64,000 nucleotides of DNA from assembly GCA_035546035.1 (NCBI GenBank), contig DASZXC010000008.1, positions 123,951 through 187,950 of the forward strand. The letters run 5' to 3'. Position numbers and translations under genes: made by a program. This document shows positions 31,844 through 57,872 of this stretch, piece by piece; position 1 is the stretch's first letter, and every line of letters begins with the position of its first letter. This DNA is from Minisyncoccota bacterium (GTDB lineage: Bacteria > Patescibacteriota > Minisyncoccia > Phycocordibacterales > UBA6065). The notes under the pieces are model-generated. The model had not been told where the DNA came from. It made no database searches and saw only the letters and a list, made by a program, of their open reading frames with translations.

Positions 31844-31844
31844 A

Positions 31845-31910
31845 GCAGAAACCTGCAATATAAAACCACCCCGCCGAGGCCTGGGGTGGTTTTATATTGC
31901 AGGTTTCTGC
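31845..31910. terminator. 66-nt perfect hairpin (28-bp stem) between convergent rpsJ and the pilin gene; bidirectional terminator candidate
   Basis: gcagaaacctgcaatataaaaccacccc-gccgaggcct-ggggtggttttatattgcaggtttctgc. Stem abuts the rpsJ stop (31841-43) and overlaps the pilin stop (31910-12). Confidence 0.7.
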
Positions 31911-32356
31911 TAAGGACAGACCGACGACGTGGCAGGACCCGACGAACCCTTCGATGCGCCCATAGAGTCTACGCACCAATAAGTCGAGGTCGAGACGAGC
32001 TGCGCCGATACCGCCCATGCCGTCTGGGTTCCGGCAGGGGATGCGTAGCATGCCACTGCAGGGGACGTAGATGCCAATGCCGCTATCTGGTCGCTCATCT
32101 TCGGGTCGGCGACGAATATCGAGCCAGAGGTCGAGCATGACGAGACCGTGCCTGCCGCCGATCCGTAATTGCCCGCGCCGTCGAAATAGAGCTCCGCTTG
32201 AGGGCGAAGGGAGACGAGCTGCGCCTTTACGGCCGCGTCGCTGCCCTTGTTTCGCGCCGAATTCAACGATGCGAGCACTACCGACGACAATATGCCGATG
32301 ATAGCGATCACAACGAGGAGTTCGATGAGGGTAAAGCCTTTCTTCAAATTCTTCAT
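31910..32356 (-). CDS. pilA: Type IV major pilin (PilA-like prepilin)
   Basis: Start at internal Met (complement 32354-32356): MKNLKKG/FTLIELLVVIAIIGILSSVVLASL is a class III signal with Glu+5. 148 aa Ser/Ala-rich with C-terminal Cys pair (..WCVD...SVCP). Confidence 0.8.
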   Translation of the reverse strand: MKNLKKGFTLIELLVVIAIIGILSSVVLASLNSARNKGSDAAVKAQLVSLRPQAELYFDGAGNYGSAAGTVSSCSTSGSIFVADPKMSDQIAALASTSPAVACYASPAGTQTAWAVSAQLVSTSTYWCVDSMGASKGSSGPATSSVCP

Positions 32357-32560
32357 ATCGATCAAAAAACTAATAATGCTGTGTTTTTCAGCTCGAGGAT
32401 AAGTATAGCAGGCGTTTTCGGCCCTCATTTGCTTTATTTTCCCCAGTGGGGTAGTATGACCCCCACAAGAGAAGCACGGCTTCTTTTTTGATTTCAGTTT
32501 TATTTATTTGGGATATTAAGAGAGCCTACGGAGCCCCCAGCTCCGCGCTCGCGCAAACCA

Positions 32561-33955: not shown

Positions 33956-34408
33956 ATGTCGCTTTTCAACACACAAAGGAAGAAGGCCGGCAATGCGACC
34001 GCAGGCGAGGACAAGGCAAAGAAGACCAAGGCCGTCGCCGTAGTTAAGCCTGCCAAGGAGGATAAAAAGGAAGCAAAAGCAAAGAAGGAGTCCAAGGACG
34101 AAAAGCGCGCTGCAGCGGCTGCGGGCGTCGTCTTCGACAAGAAGTCGGTCATCATCAAACCCCGCGTCACGGAAAAGGCAGGCATCCTCTCGCAGTCGGG
34201 CGTATACACGTTCGATGTGAAGGTAGGCGCGAACGTCCGCCAGATCGCTGACGCTATCGAAGCCGCATACAAGGTCACGCCGGTAAAGGTCTCGACCGCT
34301 GCGGTAAAGGGCAAGGCCATGTTCGCTCGCGGCCGAAAGGGTTCGACTTCGGCAGGCAAGAAGGCCTACGTCTATCTCGAGAAGGGACAGACCATCGAAT
34401 TCATATAA
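33956..34408 (+). CDS. rplW: 50S ribosomal protein L23 (with long Lys/Ala-rich N-terminal extension)
   Basis: Start at ATG 33956 (MSLFN...), in frame within track ORF 33878..34408 and right after the rplD stop. C-terminal uL23 core ..IKPRVTEKA....YTFDV...ANVRQIADAIEAAYKV. Confidence 0.9.
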   Translation: MSLFNTQRKKAGNATAGEDKAKKTKAVAVVKPAKEDKKEAKAKKESKDEKRAAAAAGVVFDKKSVIIKPRVTEKAGILSQSGVYTFDVKVGANVRQIADAIEAAYKVTPVKVSTAAVKGKAMFARGRKGSTSAGKKAYVYLEKGQTIEFI

Positions 34409-34428
34409 TCTAAGTAATTATCAATCCA

Positions 34429-35283
34429 ATGAAATCATATCGACCAACATCTCCAGGCAGGCGCCAGATGCAGACGATCAACTTCAAGGAGTACATCACC
34501 CAGAAGGATCCTGTTAAGGCTCTCACCTATGGCCGAAAGCGCGACGTAGGACGAAACGCGGCAGGACGCGTTACCGTGCGCCACAAGGGCGGCGGCCATA
34601 AGCGCCTCTATCGCGACATCTCTTTCATGTATGACAAGAAAGACATTCCTGCGACCATCAAGTCCATTGAATACGATCCGAACCGATCGGGCTTCATCGG
34701 CCTCGCGGCATATCGCGACGGCGAGCGACGCTACGTCCTCCTTCCGAAGGGCGTAAAGCCAGGCACGACCATCGTGACCGGCGTCACCGCTCCTCTCCAG
34801 CCAGGCAACGCTCTTCCTTTGAAGAAGATCCCTGTAGGCACCTTCATCTACAACATCGAGCTTAAGCCGAACTCCGGCGCAAAGGCGGCTCGTGCAGCAG
34901 GCATATTCGCCCAGGTCATCGGTAACGACGCAGGCTATACCATGATCAAGATGCCTTCGACCGAAGTCCGAAAGGTCCACGAAGAGGCATTCGCTACCGT
35001 CGGCCAGGTATCGAACGACGAGCACTGGCTCGTGAACTCGGGTAAGGCAGGCCGCTCGCGATGGCTGGGTATCCGCCCGACGGTCCGTGGTACCGCGCAG
35101 AACCCGGTAGACCATCCATACGGCGGCGGTGAAGGCCGACAGGGCCGCGGTCTCCGAAGGCTCAAGACCCGATGGGGCAAGCCGGCCGGCAAGGGCCAGA
35201 AGACCCGTACGCCGAAGAAGTACTCGAACGTCTTCATCGTTTCGAGGCGCAAGGTTGGAAAGGATAGGAACAATATTCAGTAA
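34429..35283 (+). CDS. rplB: 50S ribosomal protein L2
   Basis: uL2 conserved sequence (..RHKGGGHKR.YR..., ..GGGEGR..). Confidence 0.95.
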   Translation: MKSYRPTSPGRRQMQTINFKEYITQKDPVKALTYGRKRDVGRNAAGRVTVRHKGGGHKRLYRDISFMYDKKDIPATIKSIEYDPNRSGFIGLAAYRDGERRYVLLPKGVKPGTTIVTGVTAPLQPGNALPLKKIPVGTFIYNIELKPNSGAKAARAAGIFAQVIGNDAGYTMIKMPSTEVRKVHEEAFATVGQVSNDEHWLVNSGKAGRSRWLGIRPTVRGTAQNPVDHPYGGGEGRQGRGLRRLKTRWGKPAGKGQKTRTPKKYSNVFIVSRRKVGKDRNNIQ

Positions 35284-35287
35284 TGAA

Positions 35288-35320
35288 ACAAAAAAACGGC
35301 CGGATGGCCGTTTTTTTGTT
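35288..35320 (+). terminator. Strong intrinsic terminator immediately after rplB, at the start of the AT-rich insertion
   Basis: aaaaaaacggccggatggccgtttttttg. Confidence 0.8.
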
Positions 35321-36231
35321 TCTATGCTTGAATGGATTAAACTTCTTTAACTTATGACTGCTACTCCGTTTGAAATAAAACTTATCGGCAAGATGGCTCT
35401 CGCGAATGAAAAGATTAAGAAGATTCCTCGAAAACTCCATGCGGCCACGTGTCCCATCGAAGGACCGTCGGGAGGAGAGAAATGTAATTGTGGGGCTCAA
35501 GATTTCAATTCGAACCTTGATGGGATCGTCAACGATCTTAAGGTCGATTAATCTCTTTGCAAATCTGGCCACTCCATTGGTCGGGTTTTTTTGAGGAAAT
35601 CGTTGTTTAATAGCGAAAAGTCTTTTACCTATGTCATCCATAAGCCCAGACGTCAGCGATGCTCCGCCCATGGACGATTCTATGCGGCAGTTCATCGCGA
35701 AGATTCCAAAAATCCTTCGAAATGCATCGAATTGGTAAACAAGATCAGCAAAGAGCATGGAGGAGCAGAGGGATTAAGTCCCTCTATTCACAAGAGAGCT
35801 AAGGAGCTCTCTTTTTGTTTGCTTTCTTAGGCTTTAGCCTGGATGATAGAATGTTCCTTATAGATCAATGTTAATTAAACATGATTAAAGTAGAATTTGA
35901 TAAGGGGAGGGGATTTAATCCGCACGTTTCCGATTTCTTAGATGCTCATAAGGAAATGACGTTACTTGGACTTGCATGGGCTTTGTTTTGGAGATTTTCA
36001 GTCGCATATGGCGCTATAGGCATTATTTTTGCAACTTTGTCTAACATTTTAGGCTGGTAATGCAAAATATTTGACTTATTTCCGTCCTCTGATAGGATAT
36101 CCACCACTAGCTTCGGAATGGGCACTAGACGGTAGAAACTAGGTAAAAGCCTAGTTTTTATCTTCCACCAGTTGTTTCTAGCAACTATAGCCCAGACGCC
36201 CGAGCTGTAATCCATTGTTTCAACACAGCAA

Positions 36232-36576
36232 ATGACGCGATCCCTTTCAAAAGGACTGAACGTAGATCCAAGGCTTCTCAAGAAGATCGAGGGCAAGAAA
36301 CCCCAGGAAACCGGCGTTATTAAGACGTGGCTTCGCGCATGCCACATTTCGCCTGAAATGGTGGGTTTCAAGTTCGGCGTCCATAACGGCAAAGACTTCG
36401 TCGAGGTCCTCGTGTCGGAAGACATGGTAGGTCACCGCCTCGGCGAATTTTCTTTGACCCGCAAGTTCACCAAGCACGGCGGCAAGATGCAGAAGGAGCT
36501 TGAAATGAAGAAGAAGGAGTCTGAAATGGCGGCTGCATCGGCAGCTAAGGCCGCTACGACCGAGAAAAAGGCCTAA
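36232..36576 (+). CDS. rpsS: 30S ribosomal protein S19
   Basis: [20 protein letters not shown]....IKTW.R...[36 protein letters not shown]. conserved uS19. Lys/Ala-rich C-terminal tail. Confidence 0.92.
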
Positions 36577-36591
36577 TATCTATATATTCCC

Positions 36592-36969
36592 ATGGTCACC
36601 GCATCTCTCACTAACTATCGCCAGTCTCCTCGCAAGGTCCGCCTCGTCGCGTCTTTGATCAAGGGCAAGACCGTCGCGCAGGCTCTCGATATGCTCGGCG
36701 TGACCACAAAACGCGCTTCGGATCCATTGGCCAAGCTCATTAATTCGGCAGTCGCTAATGCCAAGAACCTCGGCGTAGCAACAGAGAACCTCTACGTAAA
36801 GGAGTGCACCGTGAACCAGGGCGTCACCATGAACCGCTATATGCCGGGCGCCCGCGGCTCTGCGTTCCCGATCAGGAAGAAGTCGAGCCACGTAAAGCTC
36901 GTCCTCGAGACCAAGGAACCGAAGGCCAAGAAAGCAGCCAAAGCAAAGGCTCCTAAGACAACCAAATAA
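36592..36969 (+). CDS. rplV: 50S ribosomal protein L22
   Basis: uL22 conserved sequence. Confidence 0.93.
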   Translation: MVTASLTNYRQSPRKVRLVASLIKGKTVAQALDMLGVTTKRASDPLAKLINSAVANAKNLGVATENLYVKECTVNQGVTMNRYMPGARGSAFPIRKKSSHVKLVLETKEPKAKKAAKAKAPKTTK

Positions 36970-36974
36970 TTACT

Positions 36975-37667
36975 ATGTCACACACCGTACATCCATACGC
37001 GCATCGCCTCGGCATCATCAGGGACTGGAAGTCCCGATGGTTCGCAGGTAAGGGCAAGTACCAGGAGAACCTCAAGTCCGACGTCCTTTTGCGCGAATTC
37101 CTCGCCAAGAAGTTCCGCGGCATGTACGTCGCCGACCTCAACATAGAGCGCAACGAGAAAGCCGTCCGCATCATCATTACGACCTCGCGACCGGGCGTAA
37201 TCATCGGCCGACAGGGCGAGGGCGCGGTAAAGCTCAAGTCCGATATCCTCTCGTTCATGCAGAAGAACGGCTCCAAGCTCGCAAAGGGTCAGGACCTCAA
37301 GATCGACATCGAAGAGATCCGATCGCCTGAATCTAATGCGGCTATCGTCGCGTACATGATCGCCGAATCCCTCGAGAAACGCCTCCCGTTCCGCCGCGTC
37401 ATGAAGCAGACCGTCGAAAAGGTCATGGCTAACCGCGATGTGAAGGGCGTCCGCATCTTCCTCGGCGGCCGCCTCGGCGGAGCTGAAATGGCGCGCGTCG
37501 AAGACATGAAGAAGGGCCAGGTTCCTCTCCAGACCTTCCGCGCCGACATCGATTTCGCTCGCGAGAAGGCTCACATGACCTATGGAGACATCGGCATCAA
37601 GGTCTGGATCTATAAGGGCGAGGTTTTCAATAAGAAGGAGGCCGCTCGTCCTAACGCCGCTAAATAA
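36975..37667 (+). CDS. rpsC: 30S ribosomal protein S3
   Basis: uS3 (KH domain ..GIIIGRQG..). Confidence 0.95.
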   Translation: MSHTVHPYAHRLGIIRDWKSRWFAGKGKYQENLKSDVLLREFLAKKFRGMYVADLNIERNEKAVRIIITTSRPGVIIGRQGEGAVKLKSDILSFMQKNGSKLAKGQDLKIDIEEIRSPESNAAIVAYMIAESLEKRLPFRRVMKQTVEKVMANRDVKGVRIFLGGRLGGAEMARVEDMKKGQVPLQTFRADIDFAREKAHMTYGDIGIKVWIYKGEVFNKKEAARPNAAK

Positions 37668-37678
37668 TACAAACTCCC

Positions 37679-38104
37679 ATGCTTGTCCCTAAAAAAGTAA
37701 AGTACAGGAAGTGGCACGTGATGCGCAAGAACCCTTCGAAAGTGGGTATGGAGACCCGCGGCACGTACCTTTCGTTCGGATCGTTCGGCCTCAAGGCTAT
37801 CTCTGCGGCTCGCATCCGATCTGAGCAGATCGAATCGGCCCGCAAGGTCATCTCTCGCGAGATCGGCAAGAACGGCAAGCTCTGGATCCGCATCTTCCCG
37901 GACATGCCGTATACCCAGAAGCCTGCCGAAGTTAAGCTCGGCAAGGGCAAGGGCGATCTCCAGGGCTACTGCGCTCCGGTAAAGCCCGGCCGCGTGCTCT
38001 TCGAAGTGGACGGCATCGACGAAGCTATGGCCCGCGAGGCTCTCCGCAAGGGCGGCACCAAGCTCCCGACCAAGACGGTCATAATCTCCCGCGAGATCGC
38101 GTAA
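37679..38104 (+). CDS. rplP: 50S ribosomal protein L16
   Basis: uL16 conserved sequence. Confidence 0.95.
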   Translation: MLVPKKVKYRKWHVMRKNPSKVGMETRGTYLSFGSFGLKAISAARIRSEQIESARKVISREIGKNGKLWIRIFPDMPYTQKPAEVKLGKGKGDLQGYCAPVKPGRVLFEVDGIDEAMAREALRKGGTKLPTKTVIISREIA

Positions 38105-38125
38105 TACGACGTAACACTTAATACC

Positions 38126-38437
38126 ATGTCTATCTTTAGCAAAAAACCAGCAGCAGAGAAGAAAGCGGACGCCCCGAAATCCGTCGCCTCTTCGACGACC
38201 GCTAAGGCCGGCGAGGGCAAGATCCTTCAGGGTGTCGTCGTCTCCGCAAAGATGAAGGACACTGTCGTCGTCAAAGTAGACCGCTTCGTAAAGGTCCCTA
38301 AATACGAGCGCTTCATGAAGGTTTCGAAGAAGTTCAAGGCTCACGACGCCGGCAACACCAAGAAAGAAGGCGACAAAGTCACCATCGTCGAGTGCGCGCC
38401 TATCTCCAAGGACAAGAATTTCATCGTAGCCGCATAA
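38126..38437 (+). CDS. rpsQ: 30S ribosomal protein S17 (with about 30-aa N-terminal extension)
   Basis: ..KILQGVVVSAKMKDTVVVKVDRFVKVPKYERFMK.. uS17 core. Starts 21 nt after the rplP stop, so there is no rpmC between them. Confidence 0.92.
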   Translation: MSIFSKKPAAEKKADAPKSVASSTTAKAGEGKILQGVVVSAKMKDTVVVKVDRFVKVPKYERFMKVSKKFKAHDAGNTKKEGDKVTIVECAPISKDKNFIVAA

Positions 38438-39710: not shown

Positions 39711-39896
39711 ATGGCAAAAACTTCAGTAGTAGCGCGAGCGAACAAGAAACCTAAGTTCTCTACGAGGGTTGTTCGACGCTGCTTCCGCTGCGGTCGCAAG
39801 AACGGCTTCATGCGCGACTTCGGCGTATGCCGCATCTGCTTCAGGGAGTTGGCTAACGACGGCCTCATCCCAGGCATCAAGAAATCATCCTGGTAG
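39711..39896 (+). CDS. rpsZ: 30S ribosomal protein S14, zinc-binding type Z (61 aa)
   Basis: Start at internal Met of track ORF 39633..39896: MAKTSVVARANKKPKFSTRVVRRCFRCGRKNGFMRDFGVCRICFRE. CxxC...CxxC zinc ribbon. Confidence 0.9.
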   Translation: MAKTSVVARANKKPKFSTRVVRRCFRCGRKNGFMRDFGVCRICFRELANDGLIPGIKKSSW

Positions 39897-54414: not shown

Positions 54415-54419
54415 ATTTG

Positions 54420-54819
54420 TGGAGATGCCGAGAGTCGAACTCGGGTGCAGAAAGATGTTCCAGTTGCTTCTACGCGACCTAGCGGTCTTTTGCCAGTGAG
54501 GCTTTAAGCGGGCGCACTATAAAGATTCGCGAAACGTGCGGACGCCGATCTTCGCGGGCCGAAGCCCTTCGATAAGGAGCGAAGAGTCTCCGTATCTATC
54601 CTGGATCTATAACACCGGGTCCTGCCGCGCCAGGAATGCGAGCGGGCCGATGTCGTTTAGGCGGGGCTTATTAAGCAGCCGCGTAAGCGAATGAAAACGT
54701 GTTCGTCGCGAAAGGCGATTTTACAGATTTTGCATTTGATGGGCGGAAAGTTTAGAGAGGTATCCTGCTCTATCGCGCGCAAAGGGAAGCTGTCCCTCTG
54801 TCTATGCCTGTCATCCCCA
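54420..54819 (-). ncRNA. ssrA: tmRNA (SsrA)
   Basis: Minus-strand 5' end GGGGAUGACAGGCAU... pairs with 3' end ...GGUUCGACUCUCGGCAUCUCC-A (T-arm-like GUUCGA, 7-bp acceptor stem with G3:U70). Immediately downstream of smpB. Internal frame GCG ACG AAC ACG UUU UCA UUC GCU UAC GCG GCU GCU UAA UAA (about 54669-54710) is a candidate tag ORF. Confidence 0.8.
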
Positions 54820-57796: not shown

Positions 57797-57872
57797 GCGC
57801 CTATAGCTCAGTTGGTTAGAGCATCGAGCTTATACCTCGAGGGTCCTTGGTTCGAATCCAAGTAGGCGCACC
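57797..57872 (+). tRNA. tRNA-Ile with anticodon UAU (reads AUA)
   Basis: Manual fold of gcgccta-ta-gctc-agttggtta-gagc-a-tcgag-ctTATac-ctcga-gggtc-cttgg-ttcgaat-ccaag-taggcgc-a-cc. All four stems pair (acceptor 7 bp). T-loop TTCGAAT. Anticodon loop c-t-TAT-a-c. CCA not encoded. Confidence 0.8.

What the first reader, a model, noticed from the sequence alone, without database searches (positions are those of the whole stretch)
35284..36231. 0.95-kb AT-rich insertion splitting the S10 operon between rplB and rpsS
rplB is normally followed directly by rpsS. Here they are separated by ~950 bp of visibly lower GC content than the ~60% surroundings. The insert begins with a strong terminator (35288-35320) and contains another terminator-like hairpin (aaactagg-taaaag-cctagttttt, ~36134-36160). 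It holds only short ORFs of 59-79 codons without convincing RBS: 35354-35551 (MTATPFEIKLIGK...CNCGAQDF..), TTG-start 35591-35830, and 35881-36060 (MIKVEFDKGRGFNPHVSDF...). Its composition and position mark it as horizontally acquired DNA, or as the remnant of a small mobile element or moron. It forces rpsS and the following ~25 ribosomal genes plus secY to be transcribed from a new internal promoter.
Basis: seen in the sequence. Interest (0 to 1): 0.55.

Follow-up and report, generated by a model that had tools for sequence, protein, structure and literature searches.

The report
Cargo slot and rpsS leader RNA
The 948-base gap between two ribosomal-protein genes is real but has three parts: a terminator, about 740 bases of strain-specific orphan DNA in a slot where related bacteria each keep different genes, and an ancestral promoter followed by a previously undescribed folded RNA in front of the next ribosomal gene.

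Summary
rplB (34429-35283) and rpsS (36232-36576) lie 948 bp apart, and the gap holds the lowest-GC stretch of the 64-kb window (41% against 56%).

1. 35285-35322 is the intrinsic terminator of rplB. It is shared with close relatives.
2. About 35323-36063 is unique DNA with orphan mini-ORFs. It has no homologue in 80+ related Paceibacteria loci or in multi-billion-protein databases.
3. 36064-36231 is conserved. It holds a near-consensus extended -10 promoter (36071-36098) and a roughly 100-nt structured leader RNA (36106-36208).

The leader has four helices and a pseudoknot. All are supported by covariation in 22 distinct sequences, the element always sits directly 5' of rpsS, and it matches no Rfam family.

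The promoter was not created by the insert. It is present in 54 of 56 relatives, including ones with "empty" gaps of 40-200 bp. In this clade rplB|rpsS is an old operon boundary and the main variable junction of the cluster. Two sister metagenome contigs with identical rpsS carry different cassettes exactly between terminator and promoter.

The most likely function of the RNA is a cis-regulatory ribosomal-protein leader. That function is inferred, not shown.

The parts
34429..35283 (+). rplB (ribosomal protein uL2), last gene of the upstream transcription unit rplC-rplD-rplW-rplB
   Evidence: ORF. It is 94-67% identical to the rplB of 80 Paceibacteria/Parcubacteria loci. The orthologous gene in L204, L210 and L222 carries PF00181 and PF03947.
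35285..35322 (+). Intrinsic, bidirectional-type terminator of rplB: GAAACAAAAAAACGGCC-GGAT-GGCCGTTTTTTTGTTTC
   Evidence: Perfect 17-nt inverted repeat (I1). Folds at -27.3 kcal/mol, z -8.4. A terminator follows rplB in 15 of the 20 closest relatives. Sequence similarity to L003, L005 and L057 extends through it, to 35320-35325.
35323..36063 (.). Strain-specific AT-rich cargo segment (about 740 bp) occupying the slot between the rplB terminator and the rpsS promoter
   Evidence: 41.3% GC, the lowest in the window. No blastn, tblastn or tblastx similarity to 80 relatives or to the rest of the window. No phage or plasmid match. In every relative tested, similarity to the window resumes only at 36064-36104.
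35354..35551 (+). Orphan ORF o65 (65 aa, three Cys). Possibly a real mini-gene.
   Evidence: The only database hit is itself, on the Logan contig. No Pfam, PHROGs or PADLOC hit. The codon-usage score is positive only in this frame (+0.14 against -0.59 and -0.78).
35561..35592 (+). A-tract/U-tract hairpin followed by a U-run, lying after o65 (terminator-like)
   Evidence: -12.5 kcal/mol, z -2.9.
35591..35830 (+). ORF o79 (TTG start, 79 aa), with nested 35-aa and 47-aa ORFs. Probably not a gene as drawn.
   Evidence: Zero hits among 1.84 billion representatives. The frame runs through the terminator-like hairpin at 35792-35813. The codon score is negative.
35792..35823 (+). Terminator-like hairpin AAGAGAGCT-AAGG-AGCTCTCTT followed by a T-run
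   Evidence: -12.5 kcal/mol, z -2.2.
35881..36060 (+). Orphan ORF o59 (59 aa, one predicted hydrophobic helix). It is preceded by an extended -10-like TGATAGAAT at 35844-35852.
   Evidence: The only hit is itself, which NCBI annotates as hypothetical protein VHE10_02195 of a Candidatus Paceibacterota MAG. No family hit. The promoter-like motif was read directly.
36064..36098 (+). Conserved rpsS promoter: AATATT upstream box, -35 TTGACT (36071-36076), 16-nt spacer, extended -10 TGA-TAGGAT (36090-36098)
   Evidence: consensus scan. The same promoter lies directly 5' of rpsS in 54 of 56 relatives. Sequence similarity to relatives starts at 36064-36071.
36106..36208 (+). Structured rpsS leader RNA. 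P1 36109-36116 with 36200-36206. P2 36119-36123 with 36190-36194. Pseudoknot CUAG 36125-36128 with CUAG 36178-36181. P3 36136-36143 with 36150-36157, followed by U5 at 36155-36159. P4 36170-36174 with 36182-36186.
   Evidence: MFE -41.4 kcal/mol, z -3.8. All 16 homologues fold to the same architecture on their own. Covariance model R1 finds one copy per locus, always 5' of rpsS. Across 22 distinct sequences 92.4% of cells are paired, against 49.5% or less in slid controls, and 14 pairs show double changes. The pseudoknot pair at columns 24-96 has GC 8, CG 4, UA 4, AU 3 and none unpaired. No Rfam family matches even at E <= 10.
36232..36576 (+). rpsS (uS19, with a roughly 22-aa Lys/Glu/Ala-rich C-terminal tail), first gene of the downstream transcription unit
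   Evidence: PF00203, E 2.5e-31. Followed tightly by rplV, rpsC, rplP, rpsQ, rplN and rplX.

Best explanation
The spacer is not one insertion. It is three juxtaposed elements at an old operon boundary.

(1) Operon boundary (shown by comparison). In this Paceibacteria lineage the S10 cluster is ancestrally cut between rplB and rpsS. The rplC-rplB unit ends at an intrinsic terminator. rpsS and the genes after it are driven by their own near-consensus extended -10 promoter.

(2) Variable slot (shown). The stretch between terminator and promoter is the principal variable site of the cluster, and each relative keeps different cargo there. In this genome the slot holds about 740 bp of AT-rich orphan DNA with two or three mini-ORFs, each followed by a terminator-like hairpin. 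Inferred: the slot tolerates cargo because it is transcriptionally insulated. Cassettes are exchanged by homologous recombination through the highly conserved flanking ribosomal genes, not by a mobile-element mechanism.

(3) Structured leader (structure shown, function inferred). In the window's subclade the rpsS transcript begins with a roughly 100-nt structured leader: P1-P2 closing a three-way junction with hairpins P3 and P4, plus a pseudoknot between J2/3 and the P4 loop. P1 appears to derive from the simple 5' hairpin (A/C)GCUC-N4-GAGC seen in more distant relatives, whose loop would have been expanded. The RNA is most likely a cis-acting regulator of the rpsS-led ribosomal-protein operon. 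An autoregulatory r-protein-binding leader is favoured. It would act either on translation initiation, because the P1 3' strand lies 8-45 nt from the AUG in an organism without Shine-Dalgarno sequences, or by attenuation at the P3 hairpin with its U5 run.
For: Boundary and hotspot:
- The rplB-to-rpsS gap ranges from 39 to 4429 bp in 56 relatives (median 718 bp, 33 above 300 bp). Eleven further loci have no rpsS within 6 kb.
- Every junction from rpsS to rplE is tight: medians are 0-45 bp (172 bp at rplP->rpsQ, where other relatives carry rpmC), and none of 42-56 loci exceeds 300 bp at any of them.
- Cargo is heterogeneous. It includes pilin-like proteins, a PIN-like protein, deformylase, DUF3644/PDC-S19, a Gp49-like protein, a SocA_Panacea pair, histidine kinases, a HlyD-ABC-MacB trio and aminotransferases.
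- Cargo is usually AT-richer than the flanks.

Clean cassette swap:
- L222 and L223 encode identical S19 and come from sister samples. They are 99-100% identical up to the rplB terminator and again from about 38 nt before the leader.
- Between those points they carry unrelated segments of 547 bp and 1083 bp.

Promoter and terminator:
- The promoter is found in 54 of 56 relatives, including gaps of 39-200 bp.
- The terminator is found in 15 of the 20 closest relatives.
- L002 has an 'empty' site made only of terminator, promoter and leader.

Insert uniqueness.

RNA:
- Searches support the fold.
- The pseudoknot was not part of the covariance model, yet it shows all four Watson-Crick pair types with no mismatch.
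- The GAGCTC-type DNA palindrome of the simple hairpin is split by about 85 nt in the complex form while pairing is kept. This argues for an RNA-level rather than a DNA-operator function.
Against: - No transcript data exist, so the TSS, terminator efficiency and expression of the mini-ORFs are unverified.
- In the local 3.5-kb scan, promoter-like and terminator-like hits were no more frequent than in shuffles. The case rests on conservation.
- The ligand of the RNA is unknown. A covariance-model search of the E. coli rrn operon gave only chance-level hits (E >= 2), so rRNA mimicry is not demonstrated.
- P1 and P3 are almost invariant and so carry little covariation evidence. Four sequences (the ...GCUCGUAAGU type) mis-pair at three inner P1 positions as aligned, probably because of a register shift.
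- The alignment was fitted by the covariance model, which favours the modelled helices.
- Only 22 distinct sequences from one subclade were available.
- The recombination mechanism for cassette exchange is inferred only from identical flanks.
Confidence: 0.78

Rival explanations
1. One reading: a single horizontally acquired block, or a moron or mobile-element remnant, of 0.95 kb split an intact S10 operon. It brought its own terminators and forced the evolution of a new internal promoter for rpsS.
For: Foreign composition. No homologue of the middle 740 bp in relatives. L002 has a short gap.
Against: The terminator and the promoter-plus-leader are conserved in relatives with other cargo or none. 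There are no terminal inverted repeats or target-site duplications, no transposase or integrase, and no phage, plasmid or viral similarity.
Confidence: 0.07
2. The middle 740 bp is decayed remnant DNA: pseudogenised former cargo drifting to AT. It is not a recently acquired set of functional mini-genes.
For: Only short ORFs are present. o79 reads through a hairpin. Codon scores of o59 and o79 are negative. None of the ORFs has a homologue.
Against: tblastx finds no trace of any relative's cargo. o65 has a frame-specific positive codon score. Each ORF unit is followed by a terminator-like hairpin. o59 has an extended -10-like motif, and NCBI annotates it as a gene.
Confidence: 0.3
3. The conserved 36106-36208 structure is not an r-protein-binding leader. 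It is another kind of RNA element: a metabolite- or alarmone-sensing riboswitch, a 5' stabiliser or processing element, or a separate small RNA ending at P3 and its U5 run.
For: It has a compact three-way junction with a pseudoknot, as many riboswitches do. P3 plus U5 looks like an intrinsic terminator. No rRNA mimicry was detected. Simple 5' hairpins with U-runs also precede rplC in this window.
Against: It sits exclusively 5' of rpsS, one copy per locus. That is the pattern of r-protein leaders (PMC7247131). It resembles no riboswitch in Rfam. The covarying helices P2, P4 and the pseudoknot lie downstream of the U-run, so the functional RNA is the read-through form.
Confidence: 0.3
4. The gap, or the insert, is an assembly or binning chimera.
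For: It comes from a metagenome-assembled genome and shows a sharp compositional change.
Against: An independent Logan contig is 100% identical over 35211-36199 and covers both junctions. The same terminator-cargo-promoter architecture recurs in dozens of independent assemblies.
Confidence: 0.02

Closest known systems
Ribosomal-protein leaders (autoregulatory 5'-UTR RNAs), for example the E. coli S10 leader bound by L4 and the candidate L2 r-leader of Alphaproteobacteria upstream of rplB-rpsS-rplV-rpsC (Eckert & Weinberg 2020, PMC7247131)
   Same: It is a conserved, covarying structure in the 5' UTR of a large r-protein operon, with one copy per genome and a narrow lineage. It holds a hairpin with a U-run inside the leader, as in the S10 attenuator. 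Like the L2 candidate it lies inside the classical S10 gene order.
   Different: It has no sequence or structure match to any Rfam family, these included. It sits directly before rpsS, not before rpsJ or rplB. Its architecture is different: a three-way junction plus a J2/3-L4 pseudoknot. The ligand is unknown and rRNA mimicry is not shown. The host is a Patescibacteria/CPR lineage, for which two full-text searches for r-protein leaders or the S10 operon returned nothing.
Genomic-island or variable-region hotspots between conserved core genes (flexible-genome and defence hotspots); phage 'morons'
   Same: It has conserved flanks, different AT-rich cargo in each strain, and cargo that includes toxin-antitoxin-like and candidate-defence genes and surface pilins in relatives. 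It lies between a terminator and a promoter, so insertion has no polar effect.
   Different: It sits inside the ribosomal-protein super-operon. There is no tRNA, integrase or att site. The cassettes are very small (0.5-4 kb). The window's own cargo has no recognisable gene at all. It is not in a prophage, so it is not a moron in the strict sense.
Internal promoters and sub-operons in S10-spc-alpha clusters of other bacteria (general knowledge, not tested here)
   Same: A long r-protein gene array is transcribed as more than one unit.
   Different: Here the break at rplB|rpsS is accompanied by a strong terminator, a near-consensus promoter conserved across a whole clade, and kilobases of unrelated genes in many members.

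Membership tests
Intrinsic (Rho-independent) terminator (35285-35322) | Stable GC-containing stem-loop followed directly by a U-run, at the 3' end of a gene | tested here: met
   17-bp perfect stem including GGCC/GGCC, then T7. -27.3 kcal/mol, z -8.4. It starts 2 nt after the rplB stop codon. Equivalent terminators occur in 15 of the 20 closest relatives.
Intrinsic (Rho-independent) terminator (35285-35322) | Transcripts actually end there | not testable with these tools
   No transcriptome data.
Sigma-70-type extended -10 promoter (36071-36098) | -35 TTGACA-like hexamer, 16-18 nt spacer, TGn, -10 TATAAT-like hexamer | tested here: met
   TTGACT-16-(TGA)TAGGAT. The same arrangement is conserved in 54 of 56 relatives.
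Sigma-70-type extended -10 promoter (36071-36098) | Mapped transcription start | not testable with these tools
   The predicted TSS of about 36105 is inference.
Ribosomal-protein leader (autoregulatory RNA) | Located in the 5' UTR or intergenic region directly upstream of r-protein gene(s), in the same orientation | tested here: met
   All 22 distinct copies lie 8-45 nt upstream of the rpsS AUG, on the same strand.
Ribosomal-protein leader (autoregulatory RNA) | Conserved secondary structure supported by covariation | tested here: met
   92.4% paired against 49.5% or less for slid controls. 14 pairs have compensatory changes. 0 of 500 shuffles reach the observed values. The pseudoknot was not imposed by the model.
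Ribosomal-protein leader (autoregulatory RNA) | Binds an r-protein encoded in the regulated operon | not testable with these tools
   Needs EMSA or filter binding.
Ribosomal-protein leader (autoregulatory RNA) | Mimics that protein's rRNA binding site | tested here: inconclusive
   Model R1 against the E. coli 16S-23S-5S operon gave only chance-level hits (E >= 2). No Paceibacteria rRNA was available.
Any described RNA family (Rfam 15, 4227 models) | Covariance-model match | tested here: not met
   No hit in 36065-36231 even at E <= 10. In the whole window only a tRNA and a tmRNA reach gathering score.
Insertion sequence, MITE or integrative mobile element | Terminal inverted repeats and/or target-site duplication at the ends; a transposase or integrase; copies elsewhere | tested here: not met
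   Only short, low-identity repeats. No Pfam or PHROGs hit. No other copy in the window, in relatives, or in the phage, plasmid or viral collections.
Variable genomic hotspot (flexible-genome island) | Conserved flanks with unrelated content in close relatives | tested here: met
   The L222/L223 swap has 99-100% identical flanks.
Variable genomic hotspot (flexible-genome island) | Compositional deviation of the cargo | tested here: met
   41% against 56% GC in the window. Gap GC is below flank GC in most relatives.
Riboswitch | Selective small-molecule binding that changes the expression platform | not testable with these tools
   No similarity to a known class. An exclusive association with rpsS argues against this but does not exclude it.

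The most novel reading that the evidence does not exclude
The roughly 100-nt pseudoknotted three-way-junction RNA before rpsS is a new class of cis-regulatory RNA specific to a Paceibacteria (CPR) subclade. It would be either an r-protein-binding leader or a ligand sensor. It would have evolved by expansion of the loop of an ancestral 5' hairpin, and it would now govern the main ribosomal-protein operon. Next to it, the terminator-promoter gap would work as a recombination-driven cassette-exchange site inside the ribosomal super-operon, where strains swap pilins, toxin-antitoxin or defence candidates and orphan mini-genes.
Probability: 0.5. Interest if true: 0.62.

Novelty: new member of a known kind. 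Interest (0 to 1): 0.5.

Why it matters
Ribosomal-protein gene order is among the most conserved features of prokaryotic genomes and is used as a syntenic marker block for CPR/Patescibacteria phylogenomics.

- **Synteny and assembly.** One junction of that block is a clade-wide operon boundary and a hotspot for strain-specific cassettes. This affects how these contigs assemble: contig ends fall at this junction (L081 spans only 35211-36199, and L146 and L203 begin at or just upstream of the leader). It also affects how synteny is interpreted and where the flexible genome of these reduced organisms sits.
- **The leader RNA.** It is a well-supported new structured RNA candidate in a lineage where no cis-regulatory RNA for ribosomal genes turned up in my searches. 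It offers a testable handle on how ultra-small, Shine-Dalgarno-poor bacteria balance ribosome synthesis.
- **RNA evolution.** It may also be an example of a complex RNA growing out of a simple hairpin.

The AT-rich insert itself is ordinary: orphan filler or mini-genes in a permissive slot.

Tried and rejected
- **Rfam scans.** Permissive scan of 34000-37500 and gathering scan of the whole window. The spacer gave only terminator look-alike hits at 35240-35359, and nothing for the leader.
- **Family searches on all spacer ORFs, both strands.** Pfam and PHROGs on the spacer ORFs of both strands, and PADLOC on o65 and o59: nothing.
- **Homologue searches.** o65 and o59 hit only themselves. o79 had zero hits in 1.84 billion representatives.
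- **Other collections.** Viral-contig scans for o65 and o59 found nothing. blastn of the spacer against the phage and plasmid collections found nothing.
- **Decayed cargo.** tblastx and blastn of the insert against 80 relatives and against the rest of the window gave only chance hits.
- **Mobile-element ends.** The repeat search showed nothing convincing. An 11-of-19-nt echo of the leader's AGCCCAGACG at 35643 was judged to be chance.
- **Long antisense ORFs.** 35234-35758(-) and 35946-36425(-) were rejected. They run through the terminator or through rpsS, have negative codon scores and have no family hit.
- **MAFFT plus RNAalifold alone.** This missed P4 because of misalignment. It was replaced by single-sequence folds and a covariance-model alignment.
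- **Exact-sequence look-ups.** The window's rplB, rpsS and o59 are not on record.
- **rRNA mimicry.** The test against the E. coli rrn operon gave chance-level scores. The weak 23S ~1517-1588 resemblance (GGCACUA...AGCC) is noted only as a lead.
- **Leader peptide.** A 5-codon ORF at 36119 is not conserved in homologues (read).
- **tRNA-like or ribozyme readings.** No ARAGORN or Rfam support.
Full report
**1. Observation.**
- rplB occupies 34429-35283 and rpsS 36232-36576 on the + strand. They are separated by 948 bp.
- GC drops from 0.51-0.64 in the flanks to 0.38-0.47 in the spacer.
- Segment 35323-36061 has 41.3% GC against 56.2% for the window. It is the only place in 64 kb where a 740-bp window falls below 46%, and it is among the most deviant in tetranucleotide content.
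- The hairpin at 35285-35322 is a perfect 17-nt inverted repeat flanked by A- and T-runs, with -27.3 kcal/mol and z -8.4.
- The hairpin around 36131-36162 is also real, with -17.7 kcal/mol and z -7.0.
- An independently assembled Logan contig (SRR12170516, 989 bp) is 100% identical to 35211-36199, so neither junction is an assembly artefact.
- The source is a Candidatus Paceibacterota MAG.

**2. Relatives show an old operon boundary and a hotspot.** A genome-collection scan with RplB returned 80 Paceibacteria/Parcubacteria loci at 94-67% identity.
- In the 56 loci that also hold rpsS, the intergenic distance ranges from 39 to 4429 bp (median 718, 33 above 300 bp). Eleven more loci have no rpsS within 6 kb.
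- As a control, the junctions rpsS-rplV, rplV-rpsC, rpsC-rplP, rpsQ-rplN, rplN-rplX and rplX-rplE have medians of 0-45 bp, and rplP-rpsQ has a median of 172 bp. None exceeds 300 bp.
- rpsJ|rplC is a weaker second hotspot: 13 of 58 loci exceed 300 bp, and the window has 717 bp there with an antisense pilin-like gene.
- The gap content in relatives consists of real and heterogeneous genes. These include type IV pilin-like proteins, a PIN-like protein, peptide deformylase, a DUF3644 protein matching the defence candidate PDC-S19, a Gp49-like protein, a SocA_Panacea pair, histidine kinases (12 loci), a HlyD-ABC-MacB trio, aminotransferases and decarboxylases.
- The gap is usually AT-richer than its flanks.

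**3. Only the ends of the window's spacer are conserved.**
- blastn against the 80 loci matches 35200 to about 35325 (rplB 3' end plus terminator; L003, L005, L057) and 36064-36300 (13 loci at 67-86%). Nothing matches in between.
- L002 (rplB 92% identical) has a 193-bp gap consisting only of a terminator plus the conserved block. It is effectively an empty site.
- A terminator follows rplB in 15 of the 20 closest relatives.
- In every additional close relative fetched through S19, similarity to the window begins at 36064-36104.

**4. A direct cassette swap.**
- L222 and L223 are metagenome contigs from sister samples that encode identical S19.
- They are 99.8% identical up to the rplB terminator and 99% identical from about 38 nt before the leader onward.
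- Between those points they hold unrelated DNA: 547 bp with an 84-aa ORF in one, and 1083 bp with a SocA_Panacea protein plus a 164-aa ORF in the other.
- The exchangeable unit is therefore exactly the stretch between terminator and promoter. That is the position of the window's 35323-36063 segment.

**5. The promoter is ancestral.**
- Directly 5' of rpsS, 54 of 56 relatives have TTGAC(T/A), a 16-17-nt spacer that usually ends in TGn, and TAnnAT. The window has TTGACT-16-(TGA)TAGGAT at 36071-36098.
- The promoter is present in genomes with 39-200-bp gaps as well as in those with multi-kb cargo. The insert therefore did not force its creation.
- Downstream of the -10 the relatives fall into classes. 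Nine are nearly leaderless (12 nt or fewer). Twenty-four have a short hairpin (A/C)GCUC-N3-6-GAGC followed by a U-run. Six have other short leaders. Fifteen, plus the window, have a long leader.

**6. The long leader is a structured RNA.**
- Each of the 16 sequences folds on its own into the same architecture. The window copy has an MFE of -41.4 kcal/mol and z -3.8.
- In window coordinates the helices are:
  - P1: 36109-36116 with 36200-36206
  - P2: 36119-36123 with 36190-36194
  - P3: 36136-36143 with 36150-36157, followed by U5
  - P4: 36170-36174 with 36182-36186
- A covariance model built from seven sequences finds exactly one copy per locus, always before rpsS. It finds no other copy in the window or elsewhere in about 1.5 Mb of related DNA.
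- With three metagenome hits and three further distinct copies obtained through S19 homologues, 22 distinct sequences were aligned.
- On that alignment 92.4% of cells are paired, against 49.5% or less when the partners are slid. Fourteen pairs show double (compensatory) changes. P2 is 100% paired with three covarying pairs, and P4 has four covarying pairs out of five. None of 500 shuffles reaches the observed values.
- I also noticed a pseudoknot between the four nucleotides after the invariant CA of J2/3 (36125-36128, CUAG) and the 3' part of the P4 loop (36178-36181, CUAG).
- The variable pseudoknot position (columns 24-96) shows GC 8, CG 4, UA 4, AU 3 and no mismatch. This helix was not in the covariance model, so it is an independent confirmation of the fold.
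- P1 and P3 are nearly invariant and therefore uninformative for covariation.
- P1 (AGCU-CGG with CCG-AGCU) looks like the simple hairpin of distant relatives with about 85 nt inserted into its loop. Pairing survived the splitting of what would be a DNA palindrome, which argues that the conserved feature acts as RNA.

**7. What the RNA is likely to do (inferred).**
- The location is exclusive to the 5' UTR of the rpsS-led r-protein operon, with one copy per genome and a narrow lineage. This is the signature of ribosomal-protein leaders (PMC7247131).
- This organism's r-protein genes lack Shine-Dalgarno sequences (read). The 3' strand of P1 lies only 8-45 nt from the AUG. Stabilising the fold could therefore block initiation.
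- Alternatively the P3 hairpin with its U-run could act as an attenuator or pause site, as in the E. coli S10 leader.
- No known family matches. Two full-text searches, for r-protein leaders in Patescibacteria and for the S10 operon in Parcubacteria, returned nothing, and the 2020 r-leader survey mentions neither Parcubacteria nor a leader directly upstream of rpsS.
- A search of the E. coli rrn operon with the model gave only chance scores. The ligand therefore remains open. Primary rRNA binders encoded downstream (S17, L24, S8, S4, L22), or S19 itself, are the candidates.

**8. The insert itself.**
- o65 (35354-35551) and o59 (35881-36060) match only themselves in a 5.8-billion-protein collection. 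o79 matches nothing among 1.84 billion representatives.
- No Pfam, PHROGs, PADLOC, phage, plasmid or viral similarity was found. There is no trace of relatives' cargo and no mobile-element ends.
- o65 has a frame-specific positive codon score and is followed by a terminator-like hairpin.
- o59 has one hydrophobic helix and an extended -10-like TGATAGAAT upstream, and NCBI annotates it as a gene.
- o79 reads through a hairpin and is probably spurious.
- Whether these are functional mini-genes or decaying filler cannot be decided here.

**9. Verdict.**
- The finding is real. It is best described as a strain-specific orphan cassette sitting in a clade-wide, transcriptionally insulated slot at the rplB|rpsS operon boundary.
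- The cassette is ordinary.
- The boundary and hotspot are a modestly interesting property of Paceibacteria genome architecture.
- The pseudoknotted rpsS leader is a well-supported new structured-RNA candidate, a new member of the r-protein-leader kind. Its function still has to be tested.

Noticed in passing
window 31844-32560: The rpsJ|rplC junction is also split. It holds a long bidirectional terminator-like palindrome (about 31845-31910) and an antisense type IV pilin-like gene (31910-32428 on the - strand, PF07963). After these come an rplC promoter-like TTGCTT-17-TAGTAT (32430-32458) and a 5' hairpin AGAAGC-ACG-GCUUCU with a U6 run. 13 of 58 relatives have more than 300 bp at this junction.
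   Followed up: partly
window 38104-38437; L203, L204, L210: No rpmC (L29) gene lies between rplP and rpsQ. The S17 ORF starts 21 nt after rplP and carries a roughly 35-aa low-complexity N-terminal extension. Close relatives L203, L204 and L210 also go straight from L16 to S17. Other relatives (L212-L226) have a 60-61-aa L29 gene at that position.
   Followed up: partly
window 57797-57872: A tRNA-Ile with anticodon UAU (ARAGORN call; Rfam tRNA score 74.7 bits). This is an uncommon way of reading AUA.
   Followed up: no
window 36507-36576: S19 has a roughly 22-aa Lys/Glu/Ala-rich C-terminal tail beyond the Pfam domain (residues 3-82). The tail is shared by the closest relatives and is absent from more distant ones, where tblastn alignments stop at residue 92-99.
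   Followed up: no
L203:4074-4886; L204:8099-8476; L210:7940-8368: In close relatives the region after rplE, before rpsH, also carries extra genes. One is a 270-aa pilin-like Laminin_G_3 protein, and the others are 125-142-aa hypotheticals. In the window this interval holds only the zinc-type S14 gene (39711-39896).
   Followed up: partly
window 34409-34428, 36210-36231, 36577-36591: The start codons of rplB, rpsS and rplV have no recognisable Shine-Dalgarno sequence upstream.
   Followed up: no
L081 (= window 35211-36199); L146:2-101; L203:1-480: Independent short-read contigs tend to begin or end at the rplB 3' end or at the leader. This fits assembly-graph branching caused by co-existing strains that share the flanks but differ in the cassette.
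   Followed up: no
L202:3576-3647 (E. coli 23S, about nt 1517-1588): A chance-level covariance-model hit (6.7 bits, E 2.2) shares GGCACUA...AGCC with the leader's P2 and J2/3. It is recorded only as a lead for a mimicry test against Paceibacteria 23S rRNA.
   Followed up: no
window 54417-54818 (-): A tmRNA gene with tag peptide AKSVKSPFATNTFSFAYAAA.
   Followed up: no
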